A stretch of 64,000 bases of DNA from Bacteroidales bacterium (GTDB lineage: Bacteria; Bacteroidota; Bacteroidia; Bacteroidales; WCHB1-69), in NCBI GenBank assembly GCA_016285085.1, contig JAEEQA010000002.1, positions 21,390 to 85,389 on the forward strand. Reading direction: 5' to 3'. Position numbers and translations under genes: made by a program. The stretch's first letter is position 1. The number at the start of each line of letters is the position of its first letter. Shown one piece after another: positions 42,187 through 54,882 of the stretch. A model generated the notes under the pieces. The model saw nothing but the letters and a program-made list of their open reading frames with translations. It ran no database searches and had not been told where the DNA came from.

Positions 42187-42209
42187 GGATGCGGGGATGC
42201 GAGGGCAAT

Positions 42210-43025
42210 TTATTTTGTATTTTGAAACACAGAAGGGTTCCACTTTTGTAAGTTTTGCAGAACCTCGTATGTAGGGCTACTGCTGTAAGGCAGGCATCTT
42301 TTTTCACCGTTAAGAGTCATATAAACGTTGCGTGTGGTATAGTTTACAATATGGCTGTACATTATGACGCATCGTCGGTTGATGCGCAGATAGGATTTAG
42401 GAGGCAGTAATTTTTCAATTTCAGAAAAAGTCCTTTCCTGAATATAGGTATCGGAATCAGCAAAGATAGTAACTTCTCTTTTTCTGATTTCAAAAAAGGA
42501 AATTTCATCCAGTGAAATCTCATGGCTCGTATTGGAGCCGAGAAAAACAATTTTGCCTGTAAGACTGGATATATATTTTTCTCCTTTTTGCACCGCTTTT
42601 GCGCTTAACAAGTATAATTTATATAAGGTAGAAAACATTAGAAAACACCCGTTGCGCAATGTAACGGAAACATAGGTATCATACACGTACCAATAGTAGT
42701 TTGAGGTGGTTCCATACGGAAGCACGCAGTTGCGGATATGGTCGATACAAAAAAGTTCCTCAATGCAAGCTGTTACAAGTGCAAGCGCCACGCATATCAT
42801 GCAATATAATAATTTTTTGTTCTTTAGCCATAATTTGGGAATCAGGACAAAAATATTGGTATAAACAATCCCTATGATAAGCAGGTAACAGATTAATACG
42901 TAAGTAATGCTCATTTTAGGTCGCAGGAGGGCGGTATGGAGAAACCTTCCTAAAACAATTATCCAAAAGAACACATGGGCAATAATCTCCACAACGGTTT
43001 TGGCATTTATTTTTTTGTTCATCAT
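42210..43025 (-). CDS. membrane-anchored LytTR-domain regulator
   Basis: 271 aa. About 4 N-terminal TM helices, then LytTR (ISLDEISFFEIRKREVTIFADSDTYIQERTFSEIEKLLPPKSYLRINRRCVIMYSHI). AT-rich. Confidence 0.75.
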   Translation of the reverse strand: MMNKKINAKTVVEIIAHVFFWIIVLGRFLHTALLRPKMSITYVLICYLLIIGIVYTNIFVLIPKLWLKNKKLLYCMICVALALVTACIEELFCIDHIRNCVLPYGTTSNYYWYVYDTYVSVTLRNGCFLMFSTLYKLYLLSAKAVQKGEKYISSLTGKIVFLGSNTSHEISLDEISFFEIRKREVTIFADSDTYIQERTFSEIEKLLPPKSYLRINRRCVIMYSHIVNYTTRNVYMTLNGEKRCLPYSSSPTYEVLQNLQKWNPSVFQNTK

Positions 43026-43251
43026 CGATGCTGTTCTAAAACAGTTGCAATAATACGAAAATGTTTATTAAAAAGGCAGGAGTATGTTTCTTTTCATCCC
43101 CAAAGGGCACTATTAAAAAAAGCCCCTGAATTTTTGGGACGTAATTGGGATTGATTTGGGACGAAATTGGGGAAGATGAAATCACAAATCATTATTATTC
43201 AAATAAATGTAAACTTTTGTAAAAAATTTTTGGTATTATTCAAAACGCAAT

Positions 43252-43259
43252 TAACTTTG
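43252..43259 (+). promoter_or_regulatory. -7 box TAACTTTG (Cys-rich lipoprotein 43327)
   Basis: TAnnTTTGCAGCG, ~68 nt before the ATG. Confidence 0.45.
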
Positions 43260-43326
43260 CAGCGACAAAATTCATGTTTTTGTTCAAACACTGTACAATC
43301 ATTATTAATTTCAAAATTTATCACAA

Positions 43327-43848
43327 ATGAAAACAATTTTTTTATCAAAGACATTGCCTGTCATGATGACGTTATGCATGACATTTCTTCTTTTCACTGC
43401 CTGTGAAAAAAGGCAAGCGGGAGAAAATCTTTACGACCACACGGCCCAATTGATTCCTGACAATCGTAAGACAGGATCTTTGTATAGTATCAATACAAGT
43501 TGTGGCCACACAGCCTCGCAATGTCCCAATGGATGTATTCATACTCCGAGTGGCAGTTTTCATGTTGATTGTCAGGGATGGGGTAATACGTGTGCGAAAG
43601 TAGCTTCTCTCTATGTTGTTTCTGTTTCCGGTGGTCTTTACACGGCGACGACGCAGGACAGCACCGACCTGACGAGCGAGGAGTTCTTCAATATGCCGGC
43701 GCGGTCGTTGTATACGGGTTTGGACAATTCAGGTGCCCCCCGCTGGCTCAACATTCCGGCGCAGTTCTCCATCCGCGACAGCGTCACCCGTCTCTTCACT
43801 TTCAACGGTGTCTATTTTACCCAGCAGCAGGTGTATAAGAACCAATAG
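43327..43848 (+). CDS. Cys-rich lipoprotein, hypothetical
   Basis: 173 aa. Lipobox LLFTAC. Six Cys in NTSCGHTASQCPNGCIHTPSGSFHVDCQGWGNTC. Confidence 0.6.
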   Translation: MKTIFLSKTLPVMMTLCMTFLLFTACEKRQAGENLYDHTAQLIPDNRKTGSLYSINTSCGHTASQCPNGCIHTPSGSFHVDCQGWGNTCAKVASLYVVSVSGGLYTATTQDSTDLTSEEFFNMPARSLYTGLDNSGAPRWLNIPAQFSIRDSVTRLFTFNGVYFTQQQVYKNQ

Positions 43849-43890
43849 TACTGAAATGCAAGGATGCGATTATACGATGAAACTATAACG

Positions 43891-43918
43891 TAGAAAGTAA
43901 TAGGTAAAAAGTAAAAGG
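43891..43918 (+). repeat. heptad array TAGAAAG TAATAGG TAAAAAG TAAAAGG
   Basis: Between the 43327 gene and leader copy A. Same word family as 14731. Confidence 0.7.
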
Positions 43919-43944
43919 TTTCCAACGCACGCCCCCTCTTTCAG

Positions 43945-44109
43945 ACCTCCTACTTGTTACCTATCACCTTTTATGAACCCTCCGATTAGCCGCCATACTA
44001 CGACAAAACTACCTAAAGAAAACCTTCACATCTTCACACCTTCACTTCTTAGTTTCTTAACTCCTTAACTCTAAACTTTAGACTTTAAACTTTTAAATCC
44101 AAAATAATT
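43945..44109 (+). repeat. G-depleted leader module, copy A (ends at ATG 44110)
   Basis: Hand-aligned with copies B and C. ACCNNNN heptads, core CCGATTAGCCGCCATACTA, then CTT-type heptads. Confidence 0.85.
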
Positions 44110-45708
44110 ATGAAAACCACCCAAACCCTTCTCAAATCCTTTCTCCTTCTGTCGCTGCTGATAGTGACGGGAGGAACGATGTGTGGCCAGCATATTGTGT
44201 ATGAGCCGTACGATTTTCGGCAGGTGAACGCCGATGGCGACACCCTCTATTACCGTATAACTTCCTATACAGAACCTTACACCGTGGCGGTGACCCGCTG
44301 CCACGACTCCACTTACCATCTGTTACCCCAGCCCAGTTATGAATGGCAGATTGGGCAGCCAGGATTCGCTTATCCAGTCTATGACTATGATTCGCTCATC
44401 AACATACCTCCGACCGTTACGTACGACGATGTGATATACACAGTGACAGCCATTGACATTGAGGCTTTTTATAACCAAAAAGGAATAAGTGTAGTGAATT
44501 TGCCATCCACCATTGAAACCATTGATTCGGCTGCCTTTTATCTGTCATCATTGACAGAAATTTCGTTGCCAGAAAATTTGCGATCGATAAAATATGAAGC
44601 ATTTCTTCGCACACCAATTAGTGAAATACACCTACCCCAATCCTTATCGCATATTGGAGCTTTAGCTTTTGCTCACACTAATATTTCAGAGGTTGACTTA
44701 CCCAGTGGCGTTGATACATTACGGTATCTGGCTTTTTGCGGATGTCCTATTGAAAAAATCACCTTGCCGGAAGGTCTTGTCGTTATAGAAGAGAGGGCTA
44801 TTACATGCGAGTACTTGGACACGCTCATTTTCCCGAGCAGTTTGAAATGTGTTGGCTCTTTATTTAGAAGCATATCCTCGAATTTTGATAATTTCACGGA
44901 ATGGAATCAATTAAAATATGTGAAATTCACAAATGGGCCAGAACCCTTGTCGCTTGGCAAGCGTTGTTTGGCCGGATGCCCTCATTTGGAGACATTGATA
45001 CTCTCTGACAATATAGTAAGTTTTGGTGAGGAATGCTTTTCTTACAGCACTATTGACACGATGGTGATACCTCAAAATGTCAGAATGATACCAGGCCATT
45101 GTTTTTTTCATTGTGATTCATTACGGAGTGTTATTTTCCCTGAACACCTTGACACTATATCCCATTATGCATTTTCTTTTTGTCCATTATTGGAATCCAT
45201 TGTTCTCCCTAATGATTTAAAATACATAGGAGGATATGCATTTAATGCCTATAATGGAGATTCTATCGGAGTGAAAGAGATTCGTGTTCTTAGTGAGGAA
45301 CCGCCTGTATTACATTGTAATAATTATGTATTTCCTCGGATTTGGCCCATAATGTGCACAATCCCTTGTGGAACTTTATCCGATTATCAGAATAGCATTT
45401 GGGGTGCTGTTTATACAAATTTGTCTTTCTACGAAGATTGCGATGCTGTGGAGGAGCACACTGATTCTGAAATTAGAATTTACCCCAATCCCGTAAGCGA
45501 TGTGATTTATATAGAGCTGTTAGAACAAAAGGAGAATACAAACAAACAGGCGTCTGTCTATACTATTACAGGCCAAATGATTGATTCATATATTTTTAAT
45601 TCTCATGATTTTGAAATCAACTTGCAGGATTATCCAAGCAGTGTTTATATTCTTAAGGTGACCGACAACTCGGGAATATTTTTACAGGAAAAAATCATAA
45701 AACAATAA
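44110..45708 (+). CDS. BspA-type leucine-rich-repeat surface protein with T9SS C-terminal sorting domain
   Basis: 532 aa with a signal peptide. Repeated ~22-aa LRR units (IxxxAFxxCxxLxxIxLPxxL). C-terminus IRIYPNPVSDVIYIEL...VYTITGQMI...SVYILKVTDNSGIFLQEKIIKQ. Confidence 0.85.
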   Translation: MKTTQTLLKSFLLLSLLIVTGGTMCGQHIVYEPYDFRQVNADGDTLYYRITSYTEPYTVAVTRCHDSTYHLLPQPSYEWQIGQPGFAYPVYDYDSLINIPPTVTYDDVIYTVTAIDIEAFYNQKGISVVNLPSTIETIDSAAFYLSSLTEISLPENLRSIKYEAFLRTPISEIHLPQSLSHIGALAFAHTNISEVDLPSGVDTLRYLAFCGCPIEKITLPEGLVVIEERAITCEYLDTLIFPSSLKCVGSLFRSISSNFDNFTEWNQLKYVKFTNGPEPLSLGKRCLAGCPHLETLILSDNIVSFGEECFSYSTIDTMVIPQNVRMIPGHCFFHCDSLRSVIFPEHLDTISHYAFSFCPLLESIVLPNDLKYIGGYAFNAYNGDSIGVKEIRVLSEEPPVLHCNNYVFPRIWPIMCTIPCGTLSDYQNSIWGAVYTNLSFYEDCDAVEEHTDSEIRIYPNPVSDVIYIELLEQKENTNKQASVYTITGQMIDSYIFNSHDFEINLQDYPSSVYILKVTDNSGIFLQEKIIKQ

Positions 45709-45721
45709 GGCAGAAAATCAT

Positions 45722-45729
45722 TACTTTTG
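45722..45729 (+). promoter_or_regulatory. -7 box TACTTTTG upstream of leader copy B
   Basis: TAnnTTTGCCGCC, 223 nt before ATG 45952. This implies the leader module is transcribed as a 5' UTR. Confidence 0.45.
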
Positions 45730-45782
45730 CCGCCTGAAACTCCAACTGCACCGAATGCACGCGGCGCGTTCCTGCAACCCAA

Positions 45783-45951
45783 ACTGAAAATTGTAAACCT
45801 CCTACCTGTCACCTATCACCTTTTACTACCCCACCGATAGCCGCCATACTATGACGGCACTACCAAAAGAGAACCTTCACTCCTTCACTTCTTAGTTTCT
45901 TCACTTCTTAACTCTAAACTATAGACTTTTAACTTTAAAACCCAAATAGTT
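45783..45951 (+). repeat. G-depleted leader module, copy B (ends at ATG 45952)
   Basis: Starts ACTGAAAATTGTAAACCTCCTACCTGTCACCTATCACC. Preceded by a -7 box at 45722. Confidence 0.85.
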
Positions 45952-46896
45952 ATGAAAAAAATTGCAATAACTTTTTTCTTTTATGTAGTCATTCTATCCA
46001 GCTACCCGCAAATATCAATTTGTAATAACCAAATATGGGCGTCTGATACAATTTCAAATAATTATATCGACGGACATATCTATTACTCGGCAGAAACACG
46101 GACTTTAACCCTTGATAACGCTCAAATAGATGTCCCATGGCCCAACGACGACCATATTACGGATGTATTGTTTCTGTCTGAATGTCAACTAGAGATACAC
46201 CTTATAGGTGAGAATACTATTTCAGGTATATTTCCAATTAATTTATTTCGTTCAAACTGTGTGATATCTGGTTCTGGGAAATTGATACTGAGGACATTGA
46301 ATTTCGTTCATTGTTGTAGCGTTAATTTTCAAGACACACTTACCACACTCTCTATCCAAAACAATGCAGAAGTAGAGTGTTATGCCTATAATGAATGGAA
46401 TACAGGTGCCGGATTCAGAGGACATGGATACGATTGGAATGATACGACTATAGCTCTTTCAGAACGAAGTACTGAATATGCAGGAAACGTATTCGTTAAT
46501 TCAGCTACGCTACGGATAAATGCTGACATGTGCATATATCGGTTGGCAGATTTACGACTGGACGGTTGTCATTTTTCCAGTCCGGAGAATGCTTATTTTG
46601 ATTCTGATCTTCACACAGTGGTCAGTTCGGAGCAAATGGTAACGGAGTATCTGGAAGTGTTGCCTGGGTCAGTGGGCATCCCAAATGTTCAGTTAGAGAC
46701 AGAACGTGCATGGGGAGCATTGGGGTCAATCCATATAGAAAATGTGTCGTATGGACAATCGGTAAAAATATACAATATAACGGGTCAGGAGATTTATCGA
46801 ACGAAGGCACATTCATCCAAAATCAAATTGGAAACCTCTCCTGGTATATATATTGTTCGATTCCAAAATCATAGTCAAAAAGTTGTAGTTTATTAA
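45952..46896 (+). CDS. secreted protein with T9SS C-terminal sorting domain
   Basis: 314 aa with a signal peptide. C-terminus IHIENVSYGQSVKIYNITGQEIY...SPGIYIVRFQNHSQKVVVY. Confidence 0.75.
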   Translation: MKKIAITFFFYVVILSSYPQISICNNQIWASDTISNNYIDGHIYYSAETRTLTLDNAQIDVPWPNDDHITDVLFLSECQLEIHLIGENTISGIFPINLFRSNCVISGSGKLILRTLNFVHCCSVNFQDTLTTLSIQNNAEVECYAYNEWNTGAGFRGHGYDWNDTTIALSERSTEYAGNVFVNSATLRINADMCIYRLADLRLDGCHFSSPENAYFDSDLHTVVSSEQMVTEYLEVLPGSVGIPNVQLETERAWGALGSIHIENVSYGQSVKIYNITGQEIYRTKAHSSKIKLETSPGIYIVRFQNHSQKVVVY

Positions 46897-46910
46897 AGGC
46901 CAGTACAATT

Positions 46911-47315
46911 ATGAGAAAAAGTATAGTTTTTATTGTCGTATTTTTGCTAATCACATTGATTTCCAAGGCACAGAGCGAATCTTATTACATTTATGATAAG
47001 GTGAGAATTTTAACAGAAAACGCTTCAATATATCATTTACAATTACAGCCCGGCCTCTCTGAAAGACAACAGTATATCATAGACAGTTTAGTTCGGGTTA
47101 ATTCATCTCAAGTCATTGTGACAGGGAATAATCATTATATCATTCAAGTTGACGACCACAATGCACAAAGAATAAAAAGAGAGATACTTTCATGCTCTAA
47201 TAGCATACTTTATTTCTCAAAAGAGTACCTATTTGCGCCGCACGAAGAACCAGTAGAAGGTAGGAAGTATAAAGTAGGAGGTCAATTCAACAGTTCAACA
47301 ATTCAACAACCATGA
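46911..47315 (+). CDS. small secreted protein, hypothetical (resembles the N-terminal pro-region of the nearby S8 peptidase)
   Basis: 134 aa. Signal peptide MRKSIVFIVVFLLITLISKAQ. Its 3' end overlaps the next gene by 4 nt. Confidence 0.55.
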   Translation: MRKSIVFIVVFLLITLISKAQSESYYIYDKVRILTENASIYHLQLQPGLSERQQYIIDSLVRVNSSQVIVTGNNHYIIQVDDHNAQRIKREILSCSNSILYFSKEYLFAPHEEPVEGRKYKVGGQFNSSTIQQP

Positions 47316-47719
47316 AAACAACCAACATTTTCCAAACCCTTCTGCTCGCGCTGTTGCTGGCGGCGGGAGAATTAGTATTAACAAACTGCGTTAAGCAGAA
47401 AAACTGTAAAATAACAAAAAAAACATTTTGTGTTGAAGGAATGCTTTTTTATATCTCTAAAGAAAAAGCATATATAGATGTCACTGATACAACACCTCAT
47501 GTAATTTTCGTTGAAGGAGATACAATTACTATGTACAACACCTGTAGGTGGACAATAGAGCCATCCGACATTCCCACAAAATATCAGGTTGACGGAATAG
47601 AAGTACGAGCCTCATTGCTGAACAAAGGAGTTGTGTTGGATTGGGTATCAGCAGGAGATAGCAGTAATGAGGCTGTTCTTGCCCCATACAGAGTGAAATG
47701 TATTGAATCAATAAAATAA
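47312..47719 (+). CDS. small lipoprotein, hypothetical
   Basis: 135 aa. MKTTNIFQTLLLALLLAAGELVLTNC. The N-terminus is related to those of the 44110 and 52162 genes. Confidence 0.55.
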   Translation: MKTTNIFQTLLLALLLAAGELVLTNCVKQKNCKITKKTFCVEGMLFYISKEKAYIDVTDTTPHVIFVEGDTITMYNTCRWTIEPSDIPTKYQVDGIEVRASLLNKGVVLDWVSAGDSSNEAVLAPYRVKCIESIK

Positions 47720-47729
47720 AATTAAAGCA

Positions 47730-50700
47730 ATGAAAAAATTTATATTTTTCACGTGTCTGATTTTGGTTATTCATTTGATTTATGGACAGAGTGGAGGCAA
47801 TTTTTATTATGCCGAGGGTCAACAGCATTTCTTTTCAACGGATTCTACATCTGTTAATATCCTTGTCAGAAATATGCAACATTATGACACTATTGCAAAA
47901 GCTATATCTGCTTTTTATTCTGATTCTTCTGAATATGCGGTATACTATGACAATGAAGACGATAACATTATTGTAAGTAGCAAATCTATTGTGCTGCGAA
48001 ATATCGATTCCTTGCTACAACAACTTGCTCCAAATAATAACGACATTGCTTTTATCAGCTATGCCAAACAAATTGGTGGTAGTCATTTTTGGTTAAGGAA
48101 TGAAGTGTATGTGAAATATAGGGATTCTCTTCAAGCTGTAGCAGATTTATCAAATGTTTTATCCTTATACACAGTTGAGCAGGTTGTATATGAAGGTGAT
48201 TATGAATACAGACTGATCATCAACGACGAAAATCAACTATTGAACCTTGCTAATTCGTTATATGATACGTCTAAGGTAATATATTCTACCCCTGACTTTT
48301 ACGGCGAAATAGAACTTAACACCTCCGATACGTATTTTGAAAGACAATGGGGGTTATTGAATATTGGCCAAGAAGGCGGACAATCAGGATATGACATTAA
48401 TGCCGAATTAGCGTGGGATTTTTTAAGTGACCTTTTTGGAAATTCCACATTCCCTACAATCAAGGTGGCAGTCATTGACGATGGTGTTGAAAATCATGAA
48501 GATATGTATGACTCAAATGGGCAAAGTAAGGTCTTACAAGGATGTACTCCAGGATGGACGGACCACGGTGCACCAGTCCCTAAGAGCAAACATGGTGAAT
48601 GTTGCGCTGGTATAATAGCTGCCTCTCACAATTCCATTGGTATAGCCGGAGTTGCAGAAAACACTCAAATAATCCCGATAAGAATCTTCAAAAGAACAAA
48701 TTTAAAAGCATTCAGTTACGCTCGCATTGCAAAAGGTATTACTAAGGCGTGGAAAGAACTTGGTGCAGATATTCTTAGTAACTCTTGGTCTGAAAAAGAT
48801 ATTACTGTATCAAATGACAAATTAAACAATGCTATAACAAAAGCATTGTCAAGTGGTCGTAATAACAAAGGATGCGTTGTTGTTTTTTCTTCAGGGAACA
48901 ATAATACTTTCGTTAACTATCCTGCAAATCAAAGTGGGGTTATTGCAGTTGGAGGTATTGAACGATGTGGCTGGAGAGCAGGGAACCATCTTACTGCATA
49001 TATGTGTGACCATTGGAATGGTTCTTCCTATGGCAGTTGCTTTGGCAGTGCTTTGAGTGTGGTTGCACCTGCAACTAATATTTGGGCTACAGATAGACAG
49101 GGTAATGGGTATGGCTACGATGAATATAGTAAATATATCACATTTAATGGAACATCCGCTGCTTGCCCTCACGTTTCGGGGGTTGCTGCGCTAATGCTAA
49201 GCGTTAATCCCTCTTTAACACAGAATCAAATACACTCTATTATCAATAGTACAGCCCAAAAGATCACTCATTACGAATTCGTCATCAGCAATGGTCACAA
49301 TGATGGCACATGGAACAATGACGTTGGATACGGTCTTGTTGATGCACACAAGGCTGTCTGTGAAGCTAGGTTGTTTGGACATTCCTTTGCCATCCAAGGT
49401 GCAACAACAGTGAACACCTGTTCTAATTATACTTATTCTTTAATTGGGAATTTGCCACCTGAATTCAATATCGTTTGGGAAGTGAATCCCCAAATGATTA
49501 TCATTGAAGGTCAAGGAACCACTCAGGTATTAGTTAAACCCGTATATCCAGCAACAGGAAACACTGTAGTTGCCCATATTTGTCATGGTGGGGAAATAAT
49601 TAGGACTATTGACAATTTAGGATACATTGTTTCTTATGGTACAAACTATTCTATGGCGATTTCGTCAGATAGCACATTGACATCCAATATTATTTGGGGA
49701 GACAAAAGACAATTGGCCTATACTCTTTCCATTGATTCATTGGCTACTCTTACCATTACAGATACTCTGCTTTGCGTTTCTGGTTCCCGCATCATCGTGC
49801 GTCCGGGCGGGAAGCTCATCGTGAACGGCGGCACGCTCACCAATGCGTGCGATGGCGAGATGTGGGAGGGCATCTTCGTGGAAGGCAACCGAGACCTGCG
49901 GCAGCTGGCAACAAGGCAGGGCAGCGTCATCCTTACCAATGCCACCATCGAAAACGCCCGCAACGCCATCTCCACACGGGGCTTTGAAGAAAGCACCTGG
50001 TGGTACAAGACGGGCGGCATCGTTCAGGCCACCAACACGCTGTTCCGCAACAACCGCCGCAGTGTTGAGTTCCTCGACTACGAGAACCACAAGTCAAGCG
50101 GAGGCATCGCCAGCAACGCCAGCCACTTTGACCGTTGCACCTTCACGGTGGACGACGACAACCTGTTCGCTGAAAACGACGCTACCTTCGGCAGCCATGT
50201 GACGATGTGGAAAGTCCGCGGCGTGAAGTTCAACGGCTGCACCTTCCGCAACGAGACGGTTGAGCATGTGGGGCTGACACGGGGCAGTGCCATCACTGCG
50301 GAGGAGGCGGGGTTCTTTGCCCAGCGAGTGTGCCCGCGCGTGTTGCCCCAAGACCCGTGTATGTGCCTTCCGTTGGGCAGCGACACGGTGACGCGCTGCA
50401 GTTTCGAAGGGTTCCACAAAGCGGTGAATGCCACCAACACCTTCGGGAACTACGACATCACCCTCGACAACTGCGACTTCGCCCACAACCACGCGGGTGC
50501 AACGCTGTCTGCAGCGGACAACGCAAGAGTGAGCTTCTGCGACTTCGACCTGTCGGACACGCTCTCCTACTGCGGGATAGAACTCGAAAACAGCACGGGC
50601 TACACGGTGGAGGAAAACTTTTTCCACAGACAGTACAACACCAATGCCTACAAAGTGACCGGAATCTATGTGGGAAACAGCGGCACGTCGGAGAATGTGA

Positions 50701-51995
50701 TCCGCAAGAACAGCTTCAGCAACGTCAATTGGGGAATCGCAGCCACAGGGACAAATGCCCTCAATTCAAGGACAAGGATTCCCGGCCTTCAATTTGAATG
50801 CAATAGTTTTGCTGGTGGCAAGACCGACATTTCTGTGAACAGTGGCACCGTCCGAGGGACACAAGGTTCCGCTTCTGCAGGAGCTGACAACGTGTTCACC
50901 GGCTTGTGGTCAAGCCAGAGCATTGTGCTGTCCGCCGCCAACAACATAACCTATTATTACAGCAATGGAACAAATCATATTCCGAACAATTCCAGCACAG
51001 GGGTGACACCAGTGGGTTCCGCTACGGCCAACGGCTGCGCCTCAAGCCTGTGCGGCATGCAGGTGAACCCGAAGGGCACCGGAACAGCCCTGGCGCAATA
51101 CCGTGCGCTGGCGGAAGAATATGCGGATCTGGCAGAGACGTGGTGCACCGCGTCTCTACAGCCAACCGACACGATGATGCCCGACAATCCGCAGGATGCG
51201 GAAACCGCCACCCTGCAATCGCGGCTGTCGGACCTGTCGGCGGCGATGGGCGACCTTGCCCGCACCGAAATCCGCGCCATCCTGTCCGACACCGTGGTGG
51301 ATATGGCGCTGCTGAAGGAATGGTACCGCGCCATTGTAGAGGCGTGGTGCACCGCGCCTCTACAGGACACCATACAAACCGACATCCCTGTGGCGGCCTA
51401 CCAGCTGGCGGAGGTGTACAGCCACGAGGGGGATTACGCCGCGGCCAACGCCGTGCTGTCCTCCCTCCCTGAACGGTTCAACCCGGACGAGGCCTCGCGG
51501 AACGAATACGGCAACTACCTCGCCCTCCAGCGGCTGCGGGAGAATGTGTCGGGCAACTGGTACCGCCAGACGGACACGGAAATCGCCGACCTGCAACGGG
51601 TGGCGGAATACGACAACGGCCGCGCCGCCCGCATGGCGAAGGAAATCCTCTGTTTCTTCCACCACATCTGTTATGAGGACGAACCGATTCTGCCGGAATT
51701 GTCCGATGGTGCAATCGGGGAACGCAACGCCCGTAGAGACGGGGCGCGCCCCGTCTCTACGACAACCGGCAATCTCACCCTCCACCCCAACCCCGCGCAC
51801 ACCACCCTCACGGTGGAATCCGACAGCCCCGTCCGCGAAATCACCATCTACGACCTGACGGGAAAAACGATGATGACAGTTGGAAATTGTCCGTCGCCCG
51901 CAACCGTAAATGTTGTATCTTTGCCGCGTGGCATCTACCTGCTCCGCGCCGTGACGGAAGAGGGGGCGCAGACAGCACGGTTCGTAAAGAACTGA
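47730..51995 (+). CDS. S8 (subtilisin-family) serine peptidase with parallel beta-helix region and T9SS C-terminal sorting domain
   Basis: 1421 aa. Catalytic motifs VAVIDDGV (Asp), HGECCAGIIAA (His), GTSAACPHVSGVAALM (Ser). Residues ~690-1050 have beta-helix-like repeats (NCxF/NNxA). C-terminus LTLHPNPAHTTLTVES...IYDLTGKTM...GIYLLRAVTEEGAQTARFVKN. Confidence 0.9.
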   Translation: MKKFIFFTCLILVIHLIYGQSGGNFYYAEGQQHFFSTDSTSVNILVRNMQHYDTIAKAISAFYSDSSEYAVYYDNEDDNIIVSSKSIVLRNIDSLLQQLAPNNNDIAFISYAKQIGGSHFWLRNEVYVKYRDSLQAVADLSNVLSLYTVEQVVYEGDYEYRLIINDENQLLNLANSLYDTSKVIYSTPDFYGEIELNTSDTYFERQWGLLNIGQEGGQSGYDINAELAWDFLSDLFGNSTFPTIKVAVIDDGVENHEDMYDSNGQSKVLQGCTPGWTDHGAPVPKSKHGECCAGIIAASHNSIGIAGVAENTQIIPIRIFKRTNLKAFSYARIAKGITKAWKELGADILSNSWSEKDITVSNDKLNNAITKALSSGRNNKGCVVVFSSGNNNTFVNYPANQSGVIAVGGIERCGWRAGNHLTAYMCDHWNGSSYGSCFGSALSVVAPATNIWATDRQGNGYGYDEYSKYITFNGTSAACPHVSGVAALMLSVNPSLTQNQIHSIINSTAQKITHYEFVISNGHNDGTWNNDVGYGLVDAHKAVCEARLFGHSFAIQGATTVNTCSNYTYSLIGNLPPEFNIVWEVNPQMIIIEGQGTTQVLVKPVYPATGNTVVAHICHGGEIIRTIDNLGYIVSYGTNYSMAISSDSTLTSNIIWGDKRQLAYTLSIDSLATLTITDTLLCVSGSRIIVRPGGKLIVNGGTLTNACDGEMWEGIFVEGNRDLRQLATRQGSVILTNATIENARNAISTRGFEESTWWYKTGGIVQATNTLFRNNRRSVEFLDYENHKSSGGIASNASHFDRCTFTVDDDNLFAENDATFGSHVTMWKVRGVKFNGCTFRNETVEHVGLTRGSAITAEEAGFFAQRVCPRVLPQDPCMCLPLGSDTVTRCSFEGFHKAVNATNTFGNYDITLDNCDFAHNHAGATLSAADNARVSFCDFDLSDTLSYCGIELENSTGYTVEENFFHRQYNTNAYKVTGIYVGNSGTSENVIRKNSFSNVNWGIAATGTNALNSRTRIPGLQFECNSFAGGKTDISVNSGTVRGTQGSASAGADNVFTGLWSSQSIVLSAANNITYYYSNGTNHIPNNSSTGVTPVGSATANGCASSLCGMQVNPKGTGTALAQYRALAEEYADLAETWCTASLQPTDTMMPDNPQDAETATLQSRLSDLSAAMGDLARTEIRAILSDTVVDMALLKEWYRAIVEAWCTAPLQDTIQTDIPVAAYQLAEVYSHEGDYAAANAVLSSLPERFNPDEASRNEYGNYLALQRLRENVSGNWYRQTDTEIADLQRVAEYDNGRAARMAKEILCFFHHICYEDEPILPELSDGAIGERNARRDGARPVSTTTGNLTLHPNPAHTTLTVESDSPVREITIYDLTGKTMMTVGNCPSPATVNVVSLPRGIYLLRAVTEEGAQTARFVKN
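51134..51157. repeat. palindromic element inside the S8 peptidase CDS
   Basis: AGAGACGTGGTGCACCGCGTCTCT, translated AETWCTASLQ. Confidence 0.8.
51335..51364. repeat. palindromic element variant inside the S8 peptidase CDS
   Basis: TGTAGAGGCGTGGTGCACCGCGCCTCTACA, translated VEAWCTAPLQ. Confidence 0.85.
51732..51761. repeat. palindromic element inside the S8 peptidase CDS (perfect 30-nt palindrome, GC loop)
   Basis: CGTAGAGACGGGGCGCGCCCCGTCTCTACG, translated RRDGARPVST. Confidence 0.9.
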
Positions 51996-52161
51996 AAATT
52001 GAAAACCTCCTACCTGTCACCTATCACCTTTTACGAACCTGCCGATTAGCCGCCATACTATGACGGCTCTACCAAATTAGAACCGTACCCCCCTTCACTT
52101 CTTAGTTTCTTAACTCCTTAACTCTAAACTTTAGACTTTTCACTTTACCCCCCAAATAGTT
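51991..52161 (+). repeat. G-depleted leader module, copy C (ends at ATG 52162)
   Basis: Starts ACTGAAAATTGAAAACCTCCTACCTGTCACCTATCACC. The TGA inside ACTGAAA is the stop codon of the S8 peptidase. Confidence 0.85.
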
Positions 52162-53340
52162 ATGAAAACACCCCGAACCTTTTTCCGAGCATTTCTCCTT
52201 CTGACGCTGCTGGTGGCGGGAGGGAACATCGCGGTGGCGCAAACAGACAGTTGTGCCGTGAACGTGATCCACACCTATATGAATGGGCGGCTTATCCCGT
52301 GGGACAGCGTGAAAATCAAGGTTTGTGAGCCCCCTTGTGAGAGGCCCTACCATTACCACACTTTTATGCTCTATTGGCCCGACACGTTGCTGACCAATTG
52401 TACAACAGGCATAGAGGAGTACGTCTCGGCACAGGAGACAGAGTTGTCACAAGTCTTTCCAAACCCCTGTGCTGGAACGAGCCAAGTGAAGCTGACCTTA
52501 CGGAATTCAGGAATAGTTTCTGTGAGTGTGATGGATTTGCAAGGACGGCTTTGTTGCCGGAAAACGCTGCAACTTTCGTCTGGCGAGCACCTGTTATCGC
52601 TGACGCTGCCCCAAAACGGGTTCTACTTTGTGCAGGCCGAAAGCCCGCAGGGCAGCGAAGTGTGCAAGGTGCTCTGTACGGAGGGTGAAGGCTCTGATTT
52701 CGACATCCGTCTGACATCCACCTCTTTCCAAACAATGGAAAGGATTGAAAAAGCAAGCAAAGGGGGCGAGGGATTATTCAATATGACGGACAAGATGCTA
52801 ATCACCGCGTACATTACATATACAGGGGAAGTGAGAACTTGGCAATGGAGTATAAATTACGATTTGGAGTTGGATGGGGAAGTGACTAGTGAGTGGATGT
52901 CAAATATTGGATCCCTAAATATTCATTATACTGAAACTGACAGTTGTGATAACTTCACTCTTTCTGACAGAAATTTCAACGTGATTATTGCGAGTAGTAT
53001 TTGTTTGCCAACAATGGAATATCCTGTGGGTTATCGTGTTACATTCTATGATTCAACTTTTTATTCAGAGCCGACCTCCTTAGCAGCATATACAAGTTCC
53101 ACTTGGTATTTTAATGGGTGGTACAAATATCGGTATTACCCCGAAGATCTTGGAGGATGTATTTGCATCGGAGATATAAATGGGGAGATGCCACCTGAAC
53201 ATATTGATTACTATGGACAACTATCACCTTATGATTATTGCATACGACACTTGGACAAATTAACTTGCAATGAATTTAAACTTTATAAATTCACAGTATA
53301 TGGGAATGATGATGTGGAAGTTTTTGTTAGTAACGAATAA
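52162..53340 (+). CDS. secreted protein with an internal T9SS-CTD-like domain, hypothetical
   Basis: 392 aa. Signal peptide MKTPRTFFRAFLLLTLLVAGGNIAVAQ. Residues ~94-175 (LSQVFPNPCAGTSQVKLTL...GFYFVQAESPQGSEVCKVL) look like a Por_Secre_tail but are followed by ~220 more residues. Paralog of the gene at 63292. Confidence 0.65.
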   Translation: MKTPRTFFRAFLLLTLLVAGGNIAVAQTDSCAVNVIHTYMNGRLIPWDSVKIKVCEPPCERPYHYHTFMLYWPDTLLTNCTTGIEEYVSAQETELSQVFPNPCAGTSQVKLTLRNSGIVSVSVMDLQGRLCCRKTLQLSSGEHLLSLTLPQNGFYFVQAESPQGSEVCKVLCTEGEGSDFDIRLTSTSFQTMERIEKASKGGEGLFNMTDKMLITAYITYTGEVRTWQWSINYDLELDGEVTSEWMSNIGSLNIHYTETDSCDNFTLSDRNFNVIIASSICLPTMEYPVGYRVTFYDSTFYSEPTSLAAYTSSTWYFNGWYKYRYYPEDLGGCICIGDINGEMPPEHIDYYGQLSPYDYCIRHLDKLTCNEFKLYKFTVYGNDDVEVFVSNE

Positions 53341-53350
53341 ATTGAAAAAT

Positions 53351-53755
53351 ATGAAAGCAGCAATAAAAATATTGTTTATAGTCTGTGGTTTTATCTTTTT
53401 GTTCGTTTTCCACCCTTGTTTCGGACAAACACAGGACAAAGAAAGCATCTATGACAGACAAGGAAATAAAATATATTTTGACAAGGTAGAGGATGTCTTT
53501 CATATCGGATTTGCAGAAGGAACGGAGGCTAATACAAGAAATGAGGTACTAGCAGATCTTTCAAATATTGCTAACTACACTATGTTTCCCGACAGTTCGT
53601 ATCGTCTTATTATAAAACAAGGCTGTTCTGCTTTTTTCAAAGAAAAAGCATTAAAGAACAATGTTGTGACCTATTGTACCACCTTACAATACCGACGATT
53701 AGACGCACAACCGTGCGTCTCTACATACATTTTCCTCTTAACTCTTGACTCTTGA
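53351..53755 (+). CDS. small secreted protein, hypothetical
   Basis: Start at MKAAIKILFIVCGFIFLF (ATG 53351 inside the track ORF 53270). The C-terminal 20 codons run through a palindromic repeat and into the CTCTTRA array. Confidence 0.5.
   Translation: MKAAIKILFIVCGFIFLFVFHPCFGQTQDKESIYDRQGNKIYFDKVEDVFHIGFAEGTEANTRNEVLADLSNIANYTMFPDSSYRLIIKQGCSAFFKEKALKNNVVTYCTTLQYRRLDAQPCVSTYIFLLTLDS
53701..53724. repeat. palindromic element, left arm partly degraded
   Basis: AGACGCACAACCGTGCGTCTCTAC, in the last codons of the 53351 CDS (DAQPCVSTY). Confidence 0.7.
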
Positions 53756-53832
53756 CTCTTGACTCTTGACTCTTGACTCTTGACTCTTAACTCTTAACTC
53801 TTAACTCTTAACTCTTAACTCTTAACTTCTAA
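53735..53832 (+). repeat. tandem heptamer array CTCTTAA x1, CTCTTGA x6, CTCTTAA x6, CTTCTAA x1
   Basis: Counted by hand. The stop of the plus-strand gene (53755) and the stop of lspA (53829-53831, minus strand) both lie inside it. Confidence 0.9.
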
Positions 53833-54407
53833 CTCCCCGCCTCTTCCTTCTTATCCGAAAAATCCTTTAAGAAGAACAGCAGGCCGATGAGTCCCACGGT
53901 GACACAGCTGTCGGCGAAGTTGAAAATGGCAGGGAAGAAATACTCGCCGCCGAAGACCGGGAACCAGTCGGGCAGCAGGAACAGCGGGAAGTAGAACATA
54001 TCGACCACGCTTCCGTACAAAAACGGCGCGTAGCCGAAAATCACGCCGTAAAACAGGGAGTCAACGATATTGCCGATCGCGCCGGCCAGCACCATCGACG
54101 AAAGGATAACCGTGCCCGTGCGCAACTTCCCCAATTTAATCAGTTTGAACACATAGTAGGTCAGGAACCCGACCACGCCGATGCGGAAGAGCGACAGCAG
54201 CAGTTTGCCGATATTCTGACCAAAACTCACGCCGAAGGCAATCCCTTCGTTTTCGACAAAATGAAGAAGGAACCAGTGCCCGATGACGGGAATGGTTTCT
54301 CCGGGGGTCATGTTCGTTCTGACCAAAATCTTGATAATCTGGTCAATGACAACCAACACAACCATAACGATGATGGCCGTGAGGGTTAATTTCTTGCTCT
54401 TTTCCAC
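53829..54407 (-). CDS. lspA: lipoprotein signal peptidase (signal peptidase II)
   Basis: 192 aa. FVENEGIAFG, GAIGNIVDS, IFNFADS motifs. 4 TM helices. Confidence 0.9.
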   Translation of the reverse strand: MEKSKKLTLTAIIVMVVLVVIDQIIKILVRTNMTPGETIPVIGHWFLLHFVENEGIAFGVSFGQNIGKLLLSLFRIGVVGFLTYYVFKLIKLGKLRTGTVILSSMVLAGAIGNIVDSLFYGVIFGYAPFLYGSVVDMFYFPLFLLPDWFPVFGGEYFFPAIFNFADSCVTVGLIGLLFFLKDFSDKKEEAGS

Positions 54408-54419
54408 CTTGCAGAAGTT

Positions 54420-54812: not shown

Positions 54813-54837
54813 AGTTACTGGTTTTTAAAGTGAGCGG

Positions 54838-54845: not shown

Positions 54846-54857
54846 ATAAAAAAAACG

Positions 54858-54865: not shown

Positions 54866-54882
54866 CACGCTTTTTGTGAAAT

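What the first reader, a model, noticed from the sequence alone, without database searches (positions are those of the whole stretch)
42210..53760. T9SS-cargo island is a compositional mosaic whose AT-rich/GC-rich junctions fall inside intact ORFs
The island alternates between AT-rich and GC-rich blocks, and four junctions lie within uninterrupted reading frames.

- The clearest is inside the S8 peptidase near 49780. The peptidase half is AT-rich (47881-47940 has 19/60 G+C by hand count). The beta-helix, linker and CTD half is GC-rich (51241-51300 has 42/60). The ORF track mirrors this, with dense long shadow ORFs only after ~49718.
- The second is inside the 52162 gene near 52790 (52201-52260 has 39/60; 52921-52980 has 19/60).
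- Softer switches occur near 44440 in the LRR gene (about 30/60 versus 21/60) and near 43640 in the 43327 lipoprotein gene (25/60 versus 33/60).

The GC-rich blocks each contain one gene's 3' end, a leader module, and the next gene's signal peptide and N-terminus. The AT-rich blocks carry the functional bodies (LRR, S8 catalytic domain, small proteins).

This looks like in-frame replacement or insertion of foreign AT-rich cassettes into resident genes. One example would be a 5.3-kb AT-rich segment (about 44440-49780) splitting an ancestral leader-A plus beta-helix plus CTD gene. A chimeric metagenomic assembly is the alternative explanation.
Basis: partly seen in the sequence, partly recalled or inferred. 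Interest (0 to 1): 0.7.

Follow-up and report, generated by a model that had tools for sequence, protein, structure and literature searches.

The report
Swappable-head secreted enzymes, two-tone composition
One large secreted protease gene of an uncultured rumen Bacteroidales bacterium is AT-rich in its enzyme half and GC-rich in its anchoring half, and the boundary is a recombination point where a whole gene family in many species swaps enzyme 'heads' onto a shared 'carrier'.

Summary
GC3 in the S8 peptidase ORF (47730-51995) jumps from 0.30 to 0.76 at nt 49785 (dLL 152 against a permutation maximum of 9), while GC1 and GC2 do not change. Steps at 43639 and about 52700-52900 are significant and recur in homologs. 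The step near 44464 is weak.

It is not an assembly chimera: separately deposited assemblies span all four junctions at 99.4-100% identity. It is also not a one-off import of foreign DNA. In 74 of 75 non-redundant homologs the N-terminal 'head' has lower GC3 than the C-terminal 'carrier' (beta-helix, helical linker, T9SS CTD). The change-point lies a median of 7 codons before the conserved motif RIIVR-PGGKLIVDGG.

Heads of unrelated kinds (S8, M4, C13, M12-like, alpha/beta-hydrolase, an unknown 'HEISH' type) join carriers there. Head and carrier phylogenies disagree. A near-identical allele (L085) carries an M4 head in place of window 45517-49788, with homology resuming at 49789.

In-frame module replacement is therefore real, but the two-tone composition is an old, module-level family property. 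Its cause is unresolved. The closest analogue is Rhs/CdiA-type tip displacement, with polarity inverted.

The parts
43843..53829 (.). Strain-variable island proper (9,987 nt), lying between the end of the 43327 gene and the end of lspA
   Evidence: Conspecific contig L105 is 97-98% identical up to window 43842 and resumes at 53830. It has 1,962 nt in between, encoding a 540-aa LTD/CHU_C protein.
42210..43025 (-). LytTR-domain membrane protein (271 aa). AT-rich (GC3 0.42) but not strain-variable
   Evidence: Pfam PF04397, 43 bits. 97% identical in L105. LytTR homologs flank this type of cluster in 12 loci.
43327..43848 (+). 173-aa lipoprotein-like gene with a GC3 step at nt 43639 (0.35->0.80)
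   Evidence: All 24 homologs have a GC-richer and more conserved last ~68 codons.
43930..44112 (+). Leader copy 1, upstream of the LRR gene
   Evidence: Direct-repeat families D2-D6. Alignment A4. Distribution across loci.
44110..45708 (+). BspA-type LRR_5 T9SS cargo (532 aa). It has a weak GC3 step near 44464. A recombination breakpoint at 45516/45517 falls just after the CTD motif IRIYPNPVSDVIYIE
   Evidence: Pfam LRR_5 205 bits and Por_Secre_tail 48 bits. Change-point. L085 is 99.7% identical to 45516 and then unrelated.
45517..49788 (+). 4.27-kb segment replaced relative to allele L085. It contains the LRR CTD body, leader 2, the 45952, 46911 and 47312 genes, and the S8 head
   Evidence: blastn and alignments.
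45782..45954 (+). Leader copy 2, which lies in AT-rich DNA
45952..46896 (+). 314-aa protein with a weak CTD/DUF6383 tail
   Evidence: Pfam hits below cut-off. Homologs are present in 11 other cluster loci.
47312..47719 (+). 135-aa lipoprotein 'partner' gene, 10 nt upstream of the S8 head. AT-rich (GC3 0.34)
   Evidence: Lipobox LTNC read directly from the sequence. S8-type heads in other loci are preceded by 120-157-aa lipoproteins 2-12 nt upstream. L100 carries a homolog.
47730..49784 (+). S8 'head': signal peptide, pro-region, subtilase domain, Ig-like domain and the first beta-helix rungs. GC3 0.30
   Evidence: Pfam Peptidase_S8 153 bits, aa 244-535. GC3. Nearest relatives are 44-45% aa identical.
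49785..49832 (+). Junction: codons for (S)RIIVRPGGKLIVNGG. This is both the GC3 change-point and the recombination boundary
   Evidence: Change-point at codon 685. DNA homology to L085, L086 and L087 starts at 49789, 49788 and 49784. Family median offset is -7 codons from PGG.
49785..51995 (+). 'Carrier': right-handed beta-helix (to about 51026), helical bundle (about 51078-51662), disordered linker, and T9SS type-A CTD (about 51774-51989). GC3 0.76
   Evidence: AF2 model, pLDDT 79. Foldseek matches. Pfam Por_Secre_tail 36-37 bits. The closest carrier, P0121, is 83% identical and has an M4 head. The carrier is internally mosaic against L085 and L103.
51990..52164 (+). Leader copy 3. Its start (52005/52006) is another breakpoint against L085 and L103
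52162..53340 (+). 392-aa ORF: signal peptide, small domain, internal CTD-like beta-sandwich (aa 98-169) and a ~215-aa AT-rich extension. GC3 goes from about 0.6 to 0.3
   Evidence: Pfam 28.9 bits. The whole architecture is conserved in L006, L008, L009, L014 and L067, directly upstream of a head::carrier gene. The GC3 drop is clear in L006, L009 and L014, smaller in L008, and absent in L067.
53270..53755 (+). 161-aa ORF that looks like an orphan 5' fragment of an S8 head of the L009/L006 subtype
   Evidence: tblastn: aa 51-142 is 43% identical to the N-terminus of the L009 S8 head and 37% to that of L006.
53735..53825 (.). Heptamer tandem repeat (CTCTTGA/CTCTTAA) x13 at the right edge of the island
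   Evidence: Identical in L106 and absent from L105.

Best explanation
The 47730-51995 gene belongs to a large family of T9SS cargo proteins in uncultured gut and rumen Bacteroidales. Each protein is built from two modules.

- Head: an N-terminal enzymatic module, together with a head-type-specific small partner gene immediately upstream.
- Carrier: a C-terminal module made of a beta-helix, a helical linker and a T9SS CTD.
- Junction: the two meet at an invariant stretch, ...RIIVR|PGGKLIVDGG..., which lies inside the first rungs of the beta-helix.

Shown here:
- Homologous recombination or gene conversion repeatedly re-pairs heads and carriers. The boundary of DNA homology always falls 12-20 nt before the PGG codons.
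- The window's island (43843-53829) is a strain-variable mosaic produced by such exchanges. Further crossovers fall at other short conserved coding or leader sequences: the CTD motif YPNP...IYIE, the leader start, and positions within the carrier.
- The sharp GC3 step marks the limit between two modules with separate evolutionary histories. It is a stable, module-level property. Heads, partner genes and their spacers sit about 0.22 below host GC3. Carriers sit at or slightly above host GC3.

Inferred, not shown:
- Carriers are kept host-like because they recombine often, allelically and among paralogs (concerted evolution), possibly with GC bias. Heads are hyper-diverse accessory modules that rarely find a homologous partner, so they sit nearer the AT-biased mutational equilibrium.
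- Functionally, the carrier most likely displays the exchangeable enzyme on the cell surface after T9SS export. The partner lipoprotein is probably a head-specific chaperone or inhibitor.
For: Real and sharp step:
- Step size and position.
- Independent assemblies span all four junctions: L103 is 100% identical over 30969 to about 51469, L104 is 100% over 39117-46250, and L106 is 99.97% over 51946-59323. The exact protein is also in GCA_016648615.1.

Family-wide:
- In 89 genes, mean GC3 goes from 0.42 to 0.67 in adjacent 50-codon bins at the motif.
- Among 45 genes with strong steps, the median offset is -7 codons, and 31 fall within +/-15 codons.
- The carrier exceeds the head in 74/75 genes, p=6e-14, with GC1 and GC2 equal.

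Not linked to conservation:
- Head columns have GC3 0.33-0.39 even at >=90% conservation. Carrier columns have 0.71-0.80 even at <30% conservation.

Modular:
- Heads include S8, M4, C13, reprolysin-like, PGAP1-like hydrolase and an unknown HEISH type.
- The window's carrier is closest to P0121 (83%), which has an M4 head. Its own head has no relative above 45%.
- N and C similarity rankings disagree.
- 24 of 26 carrier pairs at 85-96% nt identity have heads with no DNA similarity. Conversely, head pairs at 81-85% have carriers at 67-71%.

Breakpoints:
- Window vs L085 at 49789.
- L008/L009, the L057 tandem pair, L030/L062 and L034/L028 all start 12-20 nt before PGG.

Other:
- Partner genes are head-type specific.
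- The junction lies inside the beta-helix fold.
- Carrier GC3 tracks the host (r=0.78) at +0.06. Heads track it less well (r=0.48) at -0.22.
Against: - The cause of the composition difference is not demonstrated.
- The polarised synonymous-substitution test was weak: six triplets per module, with parsimony bias. It gave GC* 0.34-0.56 for S8 heads and 0.38-0.76 for carriers. This neither shows GC-biased fixation in carriers nor excludes slow amelioration of heads.
- Carrier GC3 exceeds that of distant ORFs only modestly.
- HEISH-type heads are much GC-richer (0.5-0.8), with their step further upstream. 'Head = AT-rich' is therefore not absolute.
- The AT-rich LytTR gene and the 5' part of the 43327 gene are not strain-variable. 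AT-richness therefore does not simply equal exchangeability.
- All relatives are MAGs or metagenome contigs. No isolate or long-read data exist for the window's species.
- Protein functions (surface display, partner as inhibitor) are inferred from folds and gene order only.
Confidence: 0.72

Rival explanations
1. Foreign AT-rich cassettes from an AT-rich donor were recently inserted in frame into resident GC-rich genes. One example would be a 5.3-kb segment (44440-49780) splitting an ancestral leader + beta-helix + CTD gene. The AT-richness would then be un-ameliorated donor composition.
For: - GC-rich blocks match host GC3, and AT-rich blocks do not.
- A cassette replacement ending exactly at 49788/49789 is seen against L085.
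- The island 43843-53829 is absent from a conspecific strain.
Against: - The same step occurs at the same motif in 74/75 homologs in dozens of species, and in co-linear orthologs at about 73% nt identity.
- Head GC3 partly tracks host GC3 (slope 0.45), so it is not a fixed donor value.
- The nearest head relative is only 45% identical and itself sits in a GC-rich host.
- There is no strong AT->GC excess in heads.
- S8 + beta-helix + CTD is the conserved architecture.
- Apparent headless carriers are truncated gene calls.
- The replaced unit is 45517-49788, not 44440-49780.
Confidence: 0.08
2. Chimeric metagenomic assembly. Contigs from an AT-rich organism and a GC-rich organism were joined at shared k-mers.
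For: - All the data are metagenomic.
- Carriers and leaders are multi-copy repeats.
- One assembly (GCA_016648615.1) breaks between the S8 gene and the 52162 gene.
- L103 diverges from the window after about 51469.
Against: - Four separately deposited assemblies reproduce the junctions at 99.4-100% identity.
- The junction preserves frame and homologous position.
- The same step is seen in about 70 unrelated assemblies made with different assemblers.
Confidence: 0.02
3. GC-biased gene conversion is the main cause of the step. Carriers are multi-copy and shared among strains, so they undergo frequent conversion that stops where homology stops. This drives or maintains high GC3. Heads never convert and decay towards AT. 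This is a more specific form of the inferred part of the best explanation.
For: - Within-genome carriers are 89-96% identical with unrelated heads (L057, L030/L062), and homology ends 12-20 nt before PGG.
- The carrier is mosaic against L085 and L103.
- Carrier GC3 is slightly above that of distant ORFs (+0.06, p=0.008).
- The step is independent of protein conservation and, being within one ORF, of expression.
Against: - Recent substitutions in carriers are AT-biased rather than GC-biased in the rough test.
- Many genomes show only one carrier in the sampled contigs.
- The GC-rich 3' part of the 43327 gene and the LRR N-terminus are not obviously multi-copy.
- HEISH heads are GC-rich without known conversion.
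Confidence: 0.35
4. Selection on nucleotide composition itself. AT-rich DNA over heads, partners and spacers is maintained for regulation (binding of the adjacent LytTR regulator or a nucleoid protein, or silencing of costly enzymes), or for slow translation and secretion of the enzyme half.
For: - AT-richness is regional. It covers several genes on both strands and the spacers.
- It persists over deep divergence.
- A LytTR regulator is syntenic in many loci.
Against: - No binding motif or RNA family was found.
- HEISH-type heads are not AT-rich.
- The boundary coincides with a DNA-homology boundary inside a fold rather than with a functional boundary.
- Translation-speed selection would not act on spacers or on the opposite-strand LytTR gene.
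Confidence: 0.1

Closest known systems
Rhs elements (C-terminal tip displacement) and related polymorphic toxin loci (CdiA-CT/VENN, MafB)
   Same: - A constant module and an exchangeable module within one ORF.
- They are separated at a short conserved motif where recombination re-pairs them.
- The two parts have distinct GC signatures. This is stated for Rhs in PMC2935791.
- A small gene specific to the variable module lies immediately next to it.
- The loci are strain-variable and contain leftover fragments.
   Different: - Polarity is inverted. Here the variable part is N-terminal with its partner gene upstream, and the constant part is C-terminal and carries the T9SS signal.
- The variable modules are secreted hydrolases (S8, M4, C13, lipase-like), not demonstrated toxins.
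- No immunity function has been shown.
- Displaced modules carrying a constant-region stub are not systematic.
- There are no YD repeats, PAAR or VgrG, and no T5SS or T6SS context.
TANFOR-domain polymorphic toxins of Bacteroidetes (PMC7073777)
   Same: - Found in Bacteroidetes.
- Polymorphic multi-domain secreted proteins.
- Neighbourhoods are enriched in T9SS CTD cargo.
- T9SS export is hypothesised.
   Different: TANFOR proteins have a conserved N-terminal domain and variable C-terminal toxins with downstream immunity genes, and they lack a CTD. The proteins here have a bona fide C-terminal type-A CTD, variable N-termini and no TANFOR domain.
Ordinary multi-domain T9SS cargo peptidases (for example KP-43-type and other subtilases with CTDs, or mirolase of Tannerella)
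   Same: - Signal peptide, then S8 catalytic domain, then accessory domains, then a C-terminal CTD.
- The CTD fold matches the mirolase CTD 8qb1.
   Different: Those are described as fixed architectures. Not reported for them, in the literature searched, are the ~660-aa beta-helix plus helical-bundle carrier shared by unrelated heads, the invariant recombination junction, and the GC3 dichotomy.

Membership tests
T9SS type-A CTD cargo (Por_Secre_tail, PF18962) | C-terminal ~75-aa beta-sandwich sorting domain at the extreme C-terminus | tested here: met
   Pfam gives 35.9-37.1 bits against a cut-off of 27, at aa 1352-1418 of 1421. The AF2 model has a beta-sandwich at residues 705-776, matching 8qb1 and 8glk_D.
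T9SS type-A CTD cargo (Por_Secre_tail, PF18962) | N-terminal Sec signal peptide | tested here: met
   Read directly from the sequence: MKKFIFFTCLILVIHLIYGQ. No predictor was run.
T9SS type-A CTD cargo (Por_Secre_tail, PF18962) | The host genome encodes the T9SS machinery (GldK-N/SprA/PorU and so on) | not tested
   The machinery genes were not looked for in the 64-kb window, and the rest of the genome is not available.
Peptidase family S8 (subtilases) | Subtilase domain with the Asp/His/Ser catalytic triad | tested here: met
   Pfam PF00082 gives 153 bits at aa 244-535. D250, H288 and S476 (GTS) are invariant in the 36-sequence alignment A1.
Polymorphic toxin systems (Rhs/CdiA/MafB type) | A constant region and a variable domain joined at a conserved demarcation motif, with recombinational exchange | tested here: met
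   The motif is RIIVRPGGKLIVDGG. At least 6 head types are joined there. Head and carrier phylogenies disagree. Breakpoints are mapped in 5 pairs. Polarity is inverted.
Polymorphic toxin systems (Rhs/CdiA/MafB type) | The variable domain is a toxin acting on competitor cells | not testable with these tools
   Heads are peptidases or hydrolases by Pfam. Toxicity is unknown.
Polymorphic toxin systems (Rhs/CdiA/MafB type) | A cognate immunity gene adjacent to the variable domain | tested here: inconclusive
   Head-type-specific small genes lie immediately upstream (13/13 HEISH heads; lipoproteins before S8 heads). Their function is unknown, and there is no Pfam match.
Polymorphic toxin systems (Rhs/CdiA/MafB type) | Displaced or orphan variable modules that retain a stub of the constant region | tested here: not met
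   Three of four candidate head+stub ORFs are frameshifts, leaving one real case (L073). The window's orphan fragment 53270-53755 lacks the junction.
Polymorphic toxin systems (Rhs/CdiA/MafB type) | Distinct base composition of the constant and variable parts | tested here: met
   74/75 genes, with a mean GC3 difference of 0.27.
Integrative genomic island / mobile element | Integrase or transposase, a tRNA target, and flanking direct repeats | tested here: not met
   The nearest tRNAs are at 25.9-27.4 kb. No recombinase domain is present among the island ORFs. There are no flanking direct repeats at 43843 and 53829.
Shufflon / invertible-segment or DGR diversification | Inverted repeats bracketing segments plus a site-specific recombinase, or a template repeat plus a reverse transcriptase | tested here: not met
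   Only short inverted repeats at chance level were found (20-30 nt, 75-82% complementary). No recombinase or reverse transcriptase is present.

The most novel reading that the evidence does not exclude
These loci are a T9SS-linked polymorphic effector system with inverted polarity. Cassettes of [immunity-like or inhibitor partner gene + variable enzymatic head] are exchanged onto a constant beta-helix/CTD carrier, and serve strain-level competition or niche specialisation in the rumen. In addition, the 0.3-versus-0.8 GC3 step inside a single ORF is produced by GC-biased gene conversion confined to the recombining carrier. That would give a natural test of biased conversion against codon selection in bacteria, within one gene and with expression controlled.
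Probability: 0.2. Interest if true: 0.85.

Novelty: new variant of a known kind. Interest (0 to 1): 0.6.

Why it matters
1. It identifies a widespread and apparently undescribed modular family of T9SS cargo in gut and rumen Bacteroidales. Unrelated hydrolase heads are re-paired with a common surface-display carrier at a single invariant junction. This is a T9SS counterpart, with mirrored polarity, of Rhs/CdiA-type module exchange. It suggests rapid strain-level retooling of the secreted enzyme repertoire.

2. The two halves of one ORF share a transcript and an expression level, yet differ by about 0.3-0.5 in GC3 across dozens of species, irrespective of amino-acid conservation. That makes the family an unusually clean system for asking what maintains GC content in bacteria: recombination or biased conversion, selection, or accessory-gene turnover.

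3. In practical terms, such intragenic composition steps should not be read automatically as assembly chimeras or recent horizontal transfer.

Tried and rejected
- Rfam scan of 41000-55500 at E<=1: no match, so the leaders are not a known RNA family.
- Metagenome-contig scan with the carrier: the best hit was 66% identical and no conspecific alleles were found. It was useful only for family statistics.
- nhmmer search with a leader profile returned nothing, probably because of an input-format problem. It was replaced by blastn.
- Head + carrier-stub ORFs as Rhs-like displaced modules: three of the four are frameshifts.
- 'Headless' carriers as evidence for an ancestral leader + carrier gene: these are truncated gene calls without signal peptides.
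- Protein conservation as the explanation of GC3: rejected.
- A universal AT-rich cassette pool with fixed GC3: rejected, because head GC3 scales with host GC3 (slope 0.45).
- Polarised synonymous-substitution test for amelioration or GC-biased fixation: too few triplets and parsimony bias, so inconclusive.
- tRNA, integrase and flanking-repeat hallmarks of an integrative island: absent.
- Sequence search of the PDB with the carrier: nothing significant. The fold had to be obtained by prediction.

Full report
**1. The observation**

- GC is about 0.30-0.39 over 42250-43600 and about 0.50 over 43450-43900.
- It is 0.35-0.43 over 44350-49750 and 0.52-0.64 over 49750-52000.
- It is 0.48-0.52 to about 52750, 0.30-0.39 to 53650, and then 0.5-0.58 in the housekeeping flank.

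Codon-position analysis shows that the switch lies almost entirely in third positions.
- In the 1421-codon S8 ORF (47730-51995), GC3 is 0.22-0.42 up to about 49700 and 0.63-0.88 afterwards.
- GC1 and GC2 barely move, so amino-acid composition is not the cause.
- The flanking housekeeping genes (PALP 40969-42186, lspA 53829-54407, dksA-like 54420-54812, and 54883-56304) have GC3 of 0.67-0.77. The GC-rich blocks are therefore host-like and the AT-rich blocks are the deviant ones.

A maximum-likelihood change-point test with 1000 permutations gives the following. All four have p<=0.001.

| Gene | Change-point (nt) | GC3 change | dLL |
|---|---|---|---|
| S8 | 49785 | 0.30->0.76 | 152 (null maximum 8.8) |
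| 43327 | 43639 | 0.35->0.80 | 18 |
| LRR (44110) | 44464 | 0.59->0.34 | 12 |
| 52162 | 52900 | 0.60->0.27 | 21 |

Ordinary genes in the same window also reach dLL 9-23 (57113, 30924, PALP). Only the S8 step is extraordinary in magnitude.

**2. Anatomy of the region**

Pfam identifies the following:
- a LytTR-domain membrane protein (42210-43025, minus strand);
- a BspA-type LRR_5 protein with a T9SS CTD (44110-45708);
- a 314-aa protein with a weak CTD (45952-46896);
- the S8 peptidase with a C-terminal CTD;
- a 392-aa ORF (52162-53340) whose CTD-like domain is internal (aa 98-169).

Other features:
- Three copies of a ~180-nt leader precede the 44110, 45952 and 52162 genes.
- No Rfam family matches.
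- There is no tRNA, integrase or flanking repeat at the island edges.

**3. It is not an assembly artefact**

- The exact 1421-aa protein is present on a 42-kb contig of GCA_016648615.1 and on a 93-kb contig.
- L103 (GCA_016295205.1) is 100% identical to the window from 30969 to about 51469.
- L104 (GCA_016648415.1) is 100% identical over 39117-46250.
- L106 (GCA_016648395.1) is 99.97% identical over 51946-59323.
- Every junction is therefore spanned by at least two separately deposited assemblies.

**4. The S8 gene is not a fusion of unrelated genes**

- A search of 5.8 billion proteins returns many full-length (~1400-aa) homologs with the same S8 + CTD architecture at about 40% identity and 100% coverage.
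- Their loci are syntenic: LytTR, a ~166-aa gene, a ~300-aa gene, a ~130-aa gene, then the S8 gene.

**5. The key result: the step is a family property**

- Homolog genes from independent assemblies show the same GC3 profile.
- I scanned one genome per GTDB species with a family alignment and anchored every gene on the conserved motif PGG[KR]L[IV][VI][DN][GD]G (window aa 692-701).
- In 89 genes, mean GC3 by 50-codon bin runs ...0.41, 0.39, 0.42 | 0.67, 0.65, 0.65... The jump falls exactly at the motif.
- Of 68 genes with enough sequence on both sides, 45 have a strong step. Their change-points have a median offset of -7 codons (interquartile range -19 to -6), and 31 lie within +/-15 codons.
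- In 75 non-redundant genes the C-terminal part has higher GC3 than the N-terminal part in 74 (means 0.62 and 0.36; Wilcoxon p=6e-14). GC1 (0.45 vs 0.46) and GC2 (0.42 vs 0.45) are equal.
- AT-rich hosts show no step (about 0.2 on both sides).
- In a codon alignment of 16 S8-type genes from GC-rich hosts, head columns have GC3 0.33-0.39 whatever their conservation. That includes columns that are >=90% conserved (0.39).
- Carrier columns in the same alignment have GC3 0.71-0.80, even at <30% conservation. The jump from 0.40 to 0.80 occurs within ten columns.
- The dichotomy is thus module-level. It is linked neither to conservation nor, being within one ORF, to expression.

**6. Heads and carriers are separate evolutionary modules**

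- The window's N-half is closest (44-45% aa) to genes whose C-halves are only 35-39% identical to it.
- Its C-half is closest (50-69%) to genes whose N-parts are unrelated or only 30-41% identical.
- A search with the C-half alone finds P0121 at 83% identity over the full 737 aa, carrying an M4 (thermolysin) head. Other close carriers have S8, C13 or unrecognised heads.
- Pfam on the alternative N-modules gives M4, PGAP1-like alpha/beta-hydrolase, C13 legumain and reprolysin-like. A ~720-aa module with an HEISH motif has no Pfam match.
- All heads end with the same ~35-aa stretch: ...IDS..TLTI......RIIVR.
- At DNA level, 24 of 26 carrier pairs that are 85-96% identical have heads with no detectable similarity. 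Conversely, head pairs that are 81-85% identical have carriers at 67-71%.
- In five independent pairs the DNA homology starts 12-20 nt before the PGG codons:
  - window vs L085;
  - L008 vs L009;
  - the two tandem genes of L057;
  - L030 vs L062, from one MAG;
  - L034 vs L028, which have 95% identical flanks.
- Heads come with type-specific partner genes immediately upstream:
  - 13 of 13 HEISH heads follow a ~300-336-aa protein beginning '...AQYESFFG...', usually with a 4-nt overlap;
  - S8 heads follow a 120-157-aa lipoprotein (window 47312-47719).
- The partner genes are AT-rich like the heads.

**7. Direct evidence of in-frame replacement at this locus**

L085 is a 4.7-kb rumen scaffold.
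- It is 99.7% identical to the window over the AT-rich LRR body (44860-45516).
- It is then unrelated. Its 1.57 kb carries another CTD body and an M4 head (ORF 877-4452), where the window has 4.27 kb.
- It is identical again from 49789 (GCATCATCGTGCGTCCGGGCGGGAAG...).
- The left crossover lies directly after the CTD motif IRIYPNPVSDVIYIE.

The carrier itself is mosaic relative to L085:
- about 100% identical over 49789-50208;
- 45-87% over 50209-51284;
- about 100% over 51285-52004;
- 80-93% in the leader.

Other comparisons:
- L103 is identical to the window up to about 51469. It then differs at 139 positions in 51469-51968 and continues into different downstream DNA.
- L087 shows the same arrangement (LRR, M4 fragment, carrier) at about 71% identity, which independently supports the L085 arrangement.
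- A conspecific strain (L105, L107) is 97-98% identical through PALP, LytTR and the 43327 gene up to 43842, and 92.7% identical from 53830 onward. It has only 1,962 nt in between, encoding a 540-aa LTD/CHU_C protein.
- The strain-variable island is therefore 43843-53829. The AT-rich LytTR gene and the AT-rich 5' part of the 43327 gene are not variable.

**8. The other junctions**

- 43327 gene: all 24 homologs have higher GC3 in the last ~68 codons (0.53-0.92) than in the first ~100 (0.29-0.58). The 3' part is also the more conserved. This step is family-wide too.
- 52162 gene:
  - The whole architecture, including the extension after the internal CTD-like domain, is conserved in L006, L008, L009, L014 and L067, where the gene sits directly upstream of a head::carrier gene.
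  - Among those five loci the GC3 drop is clear in L006, L009 and L014, smaller in L008, and absent in L067.
  - The more distant homolog L072 also shows a drop.
- LRR gene: the junction is weak and inconsistent.
- 53270-53755: this ORF is homologous to the first ~100 aa of the S8 heads of L009 and L006. It appears to be an orphan 5' head fragment at the island's edge.

**9. What the carrier is**

An AlphaFold model of aa 645-1421 (46-sequence alignment; mean pLDDT 79) shows the following:
- a right-handed beta-helix, model residues 1-455;
- a helical bundle, residues 473-667;
- a disordered linker;
- a CTD beta-sandwich, residues 705-776.

The helix is already running 40 residues before the junction. 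The junction therefore lies inside a continuous fold, not at a domain boundary. This argues that it is defined at the DNA level, as the first long stretch of conserved nucleotides, rather than by protein architecture.

Foldseek matches the helix to PL6 alginate lyases, the AlgG epimerase and phage tailspikes. It matches the last domain to T9SS CTDs.

**10. Why the composition differs**

This part is inferred, not shown.
- Head GC3 scales with host GC3 with a slope of 0.45 (r=0.64).
- Against distant long ORFs on the same contigs, heads are 0.22 lower (p=5e-9; r=0.48). Carriers are 0.06 higher (p=0.008; r=0.78).
- Co-linear orthologs at about 73% nt identity (L089, L100) keep the step.
- The nearest head relative is only 45% identical and sits in a GC-rich host.
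- These facts argue against a recent import from an AT-rich donor, and against a fixed universal cassette pool.
- They fit a long-lived difference in regime between a hyper-diverse, rarely recombining accessory module and a frequently recombining, host-like module.
- Near-identical carriers on unrelated heads within one genome (89-96%) show concerted evolution, so GC-biased conversion is an attractive cause.
- However, a rough polarised substitution test was inconclusive. It gave GC* 0.34-0.56 for S8 heads and 0.38-0.76 for carriers.
- HEISH heads are GC-rich, with their step further upstream, so the rule is not absolute.

**11. Comparison with what is known**

Literature searches found no description of this arrangement.
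- The nearest Bacteroidetes example is the TANFOR polymorphic toxins (PMC7073777). These have the opposite polarity, no CTD, and only hypothesised T9SS export.
- The closest concept is Rhs C-terminal tip displacement. There, conserved and variable domains coincide 'with distinct GC signatures', and displaced fragments lie beside the intact gene (PMC2935791).
- The present family works like this with inverted polarity, as expected for a secretion signal at the C-terminus.
- It fails or cannot be tested on several defining features of polymorphic toxin systems:
  - toxicity is untested;
  - immunity is unknown;
  - systematic orphans with constant-region stubs are absent.
- I therefore do not file it as a member of that class.

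**12. Verdict**

In-frame module replacement is real, and its right end coincides with the main composition junction.
- The AT-rich DNA is not recently foreign, no ancestral headless gene was split, and the assembly is not chimeric.
- The finding is best described as a new, polarity-inverted variant of recombinational module exchange in secreted proteins, with an unusually clean intragenic GC3 dichotomy whose cause remains open.

Noticed in passing
window 51135-51156, 51339-51360, 51736-51757: A GC-rich palindrome, GAGACG-N10-CGTCTC, occurs three times. All three lie in frame inside the variable helical linker of the carrier ORF, and 0 are expected by chance. The same palindrome appears sporadically in other loci, for example just after a carrier stop codon in L041 (9152-9173). 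It looks like a dispersed REP-like hairpin that has been tolerated inside a coding region.
   Followed up: partly
window 53735-53825: A tandem heptamer (CTCTTGA/CTCTTAA) x13 lies between the orphan head fragment and the lspA stop codon. It is identical in L106 and absent from the conspecific strain L105. It resembles the CT-rich core of the leaders.
   Followed up: partly
window 43930-44112, 45782-45954, 51990-52164: Three ~180-nt leader copies (79-91% identical) sit upstream of signal-peptide genes. The ~40-nt core CCTTCACTTCTTAGTTTCTTAACTYCTTAACTC recurs in related species (L006, L014, L071, L085-L091). The leader start at 52005/52006 is a recombination breakpoint against both L085 and L103. 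There is no Rfam match. It may be a promoter or 5'-UTR, or a target of the LytTR protein.
   Followed up: partly
window 53270-53755: This 161-aa ORF is homologous to the N-terminal ~100 aa of the S8 heads of a different subtype (L009 43%, L006 37%). It is probably a remnant of a second head::carrier gene truncated at the island edge.
   Followed up: partly
window 52162-53340: The Por_Secre_tail-like domain is internal (aa 98-169) and is followed by a ~215-aa extension. This unusual architecture is conserved in L006, L008, L009, L014 and L067, so it is not a fusion artefact. A CTD that is not C-terminal would not be expected to act as a T9SS signal.
   Followed up: partly
window 42210-43848, and loci L002, L005, L013, L014, L037 and others: A divergently transcribed pair recurs next to head::carrier clusters in many MAGs, which suggests a dedicated regulatory module. 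The pair is a LytTR-domain membrane protein and a ~170-aa lipoprotein-like gene with a conserved GC-rich 3' third.
   Followed up: no
L002 10001-24182; L057 11115-23229: Some genomes carry two or three head::carrier genes in tandem with different head types, each preceded by its own partner gene. In L057 the two carriers are 96.5% identical over 1.3 kb.
   Followed up: partly
window 30924-33011 and 57113-58213: Two apparently ordinary genes also have markedly AT-rich 5' parts. The first is a ComEC-like gene (first 158 codons GC3 0.34, rest 0.62). The second is a GAPDH-like gene (first 46 codons of the ORF GC3 0.35), where the cause may be an over-extended start call. Moderate intragenic GC3 steps are therefore not unique to the island.
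   Followed up: no
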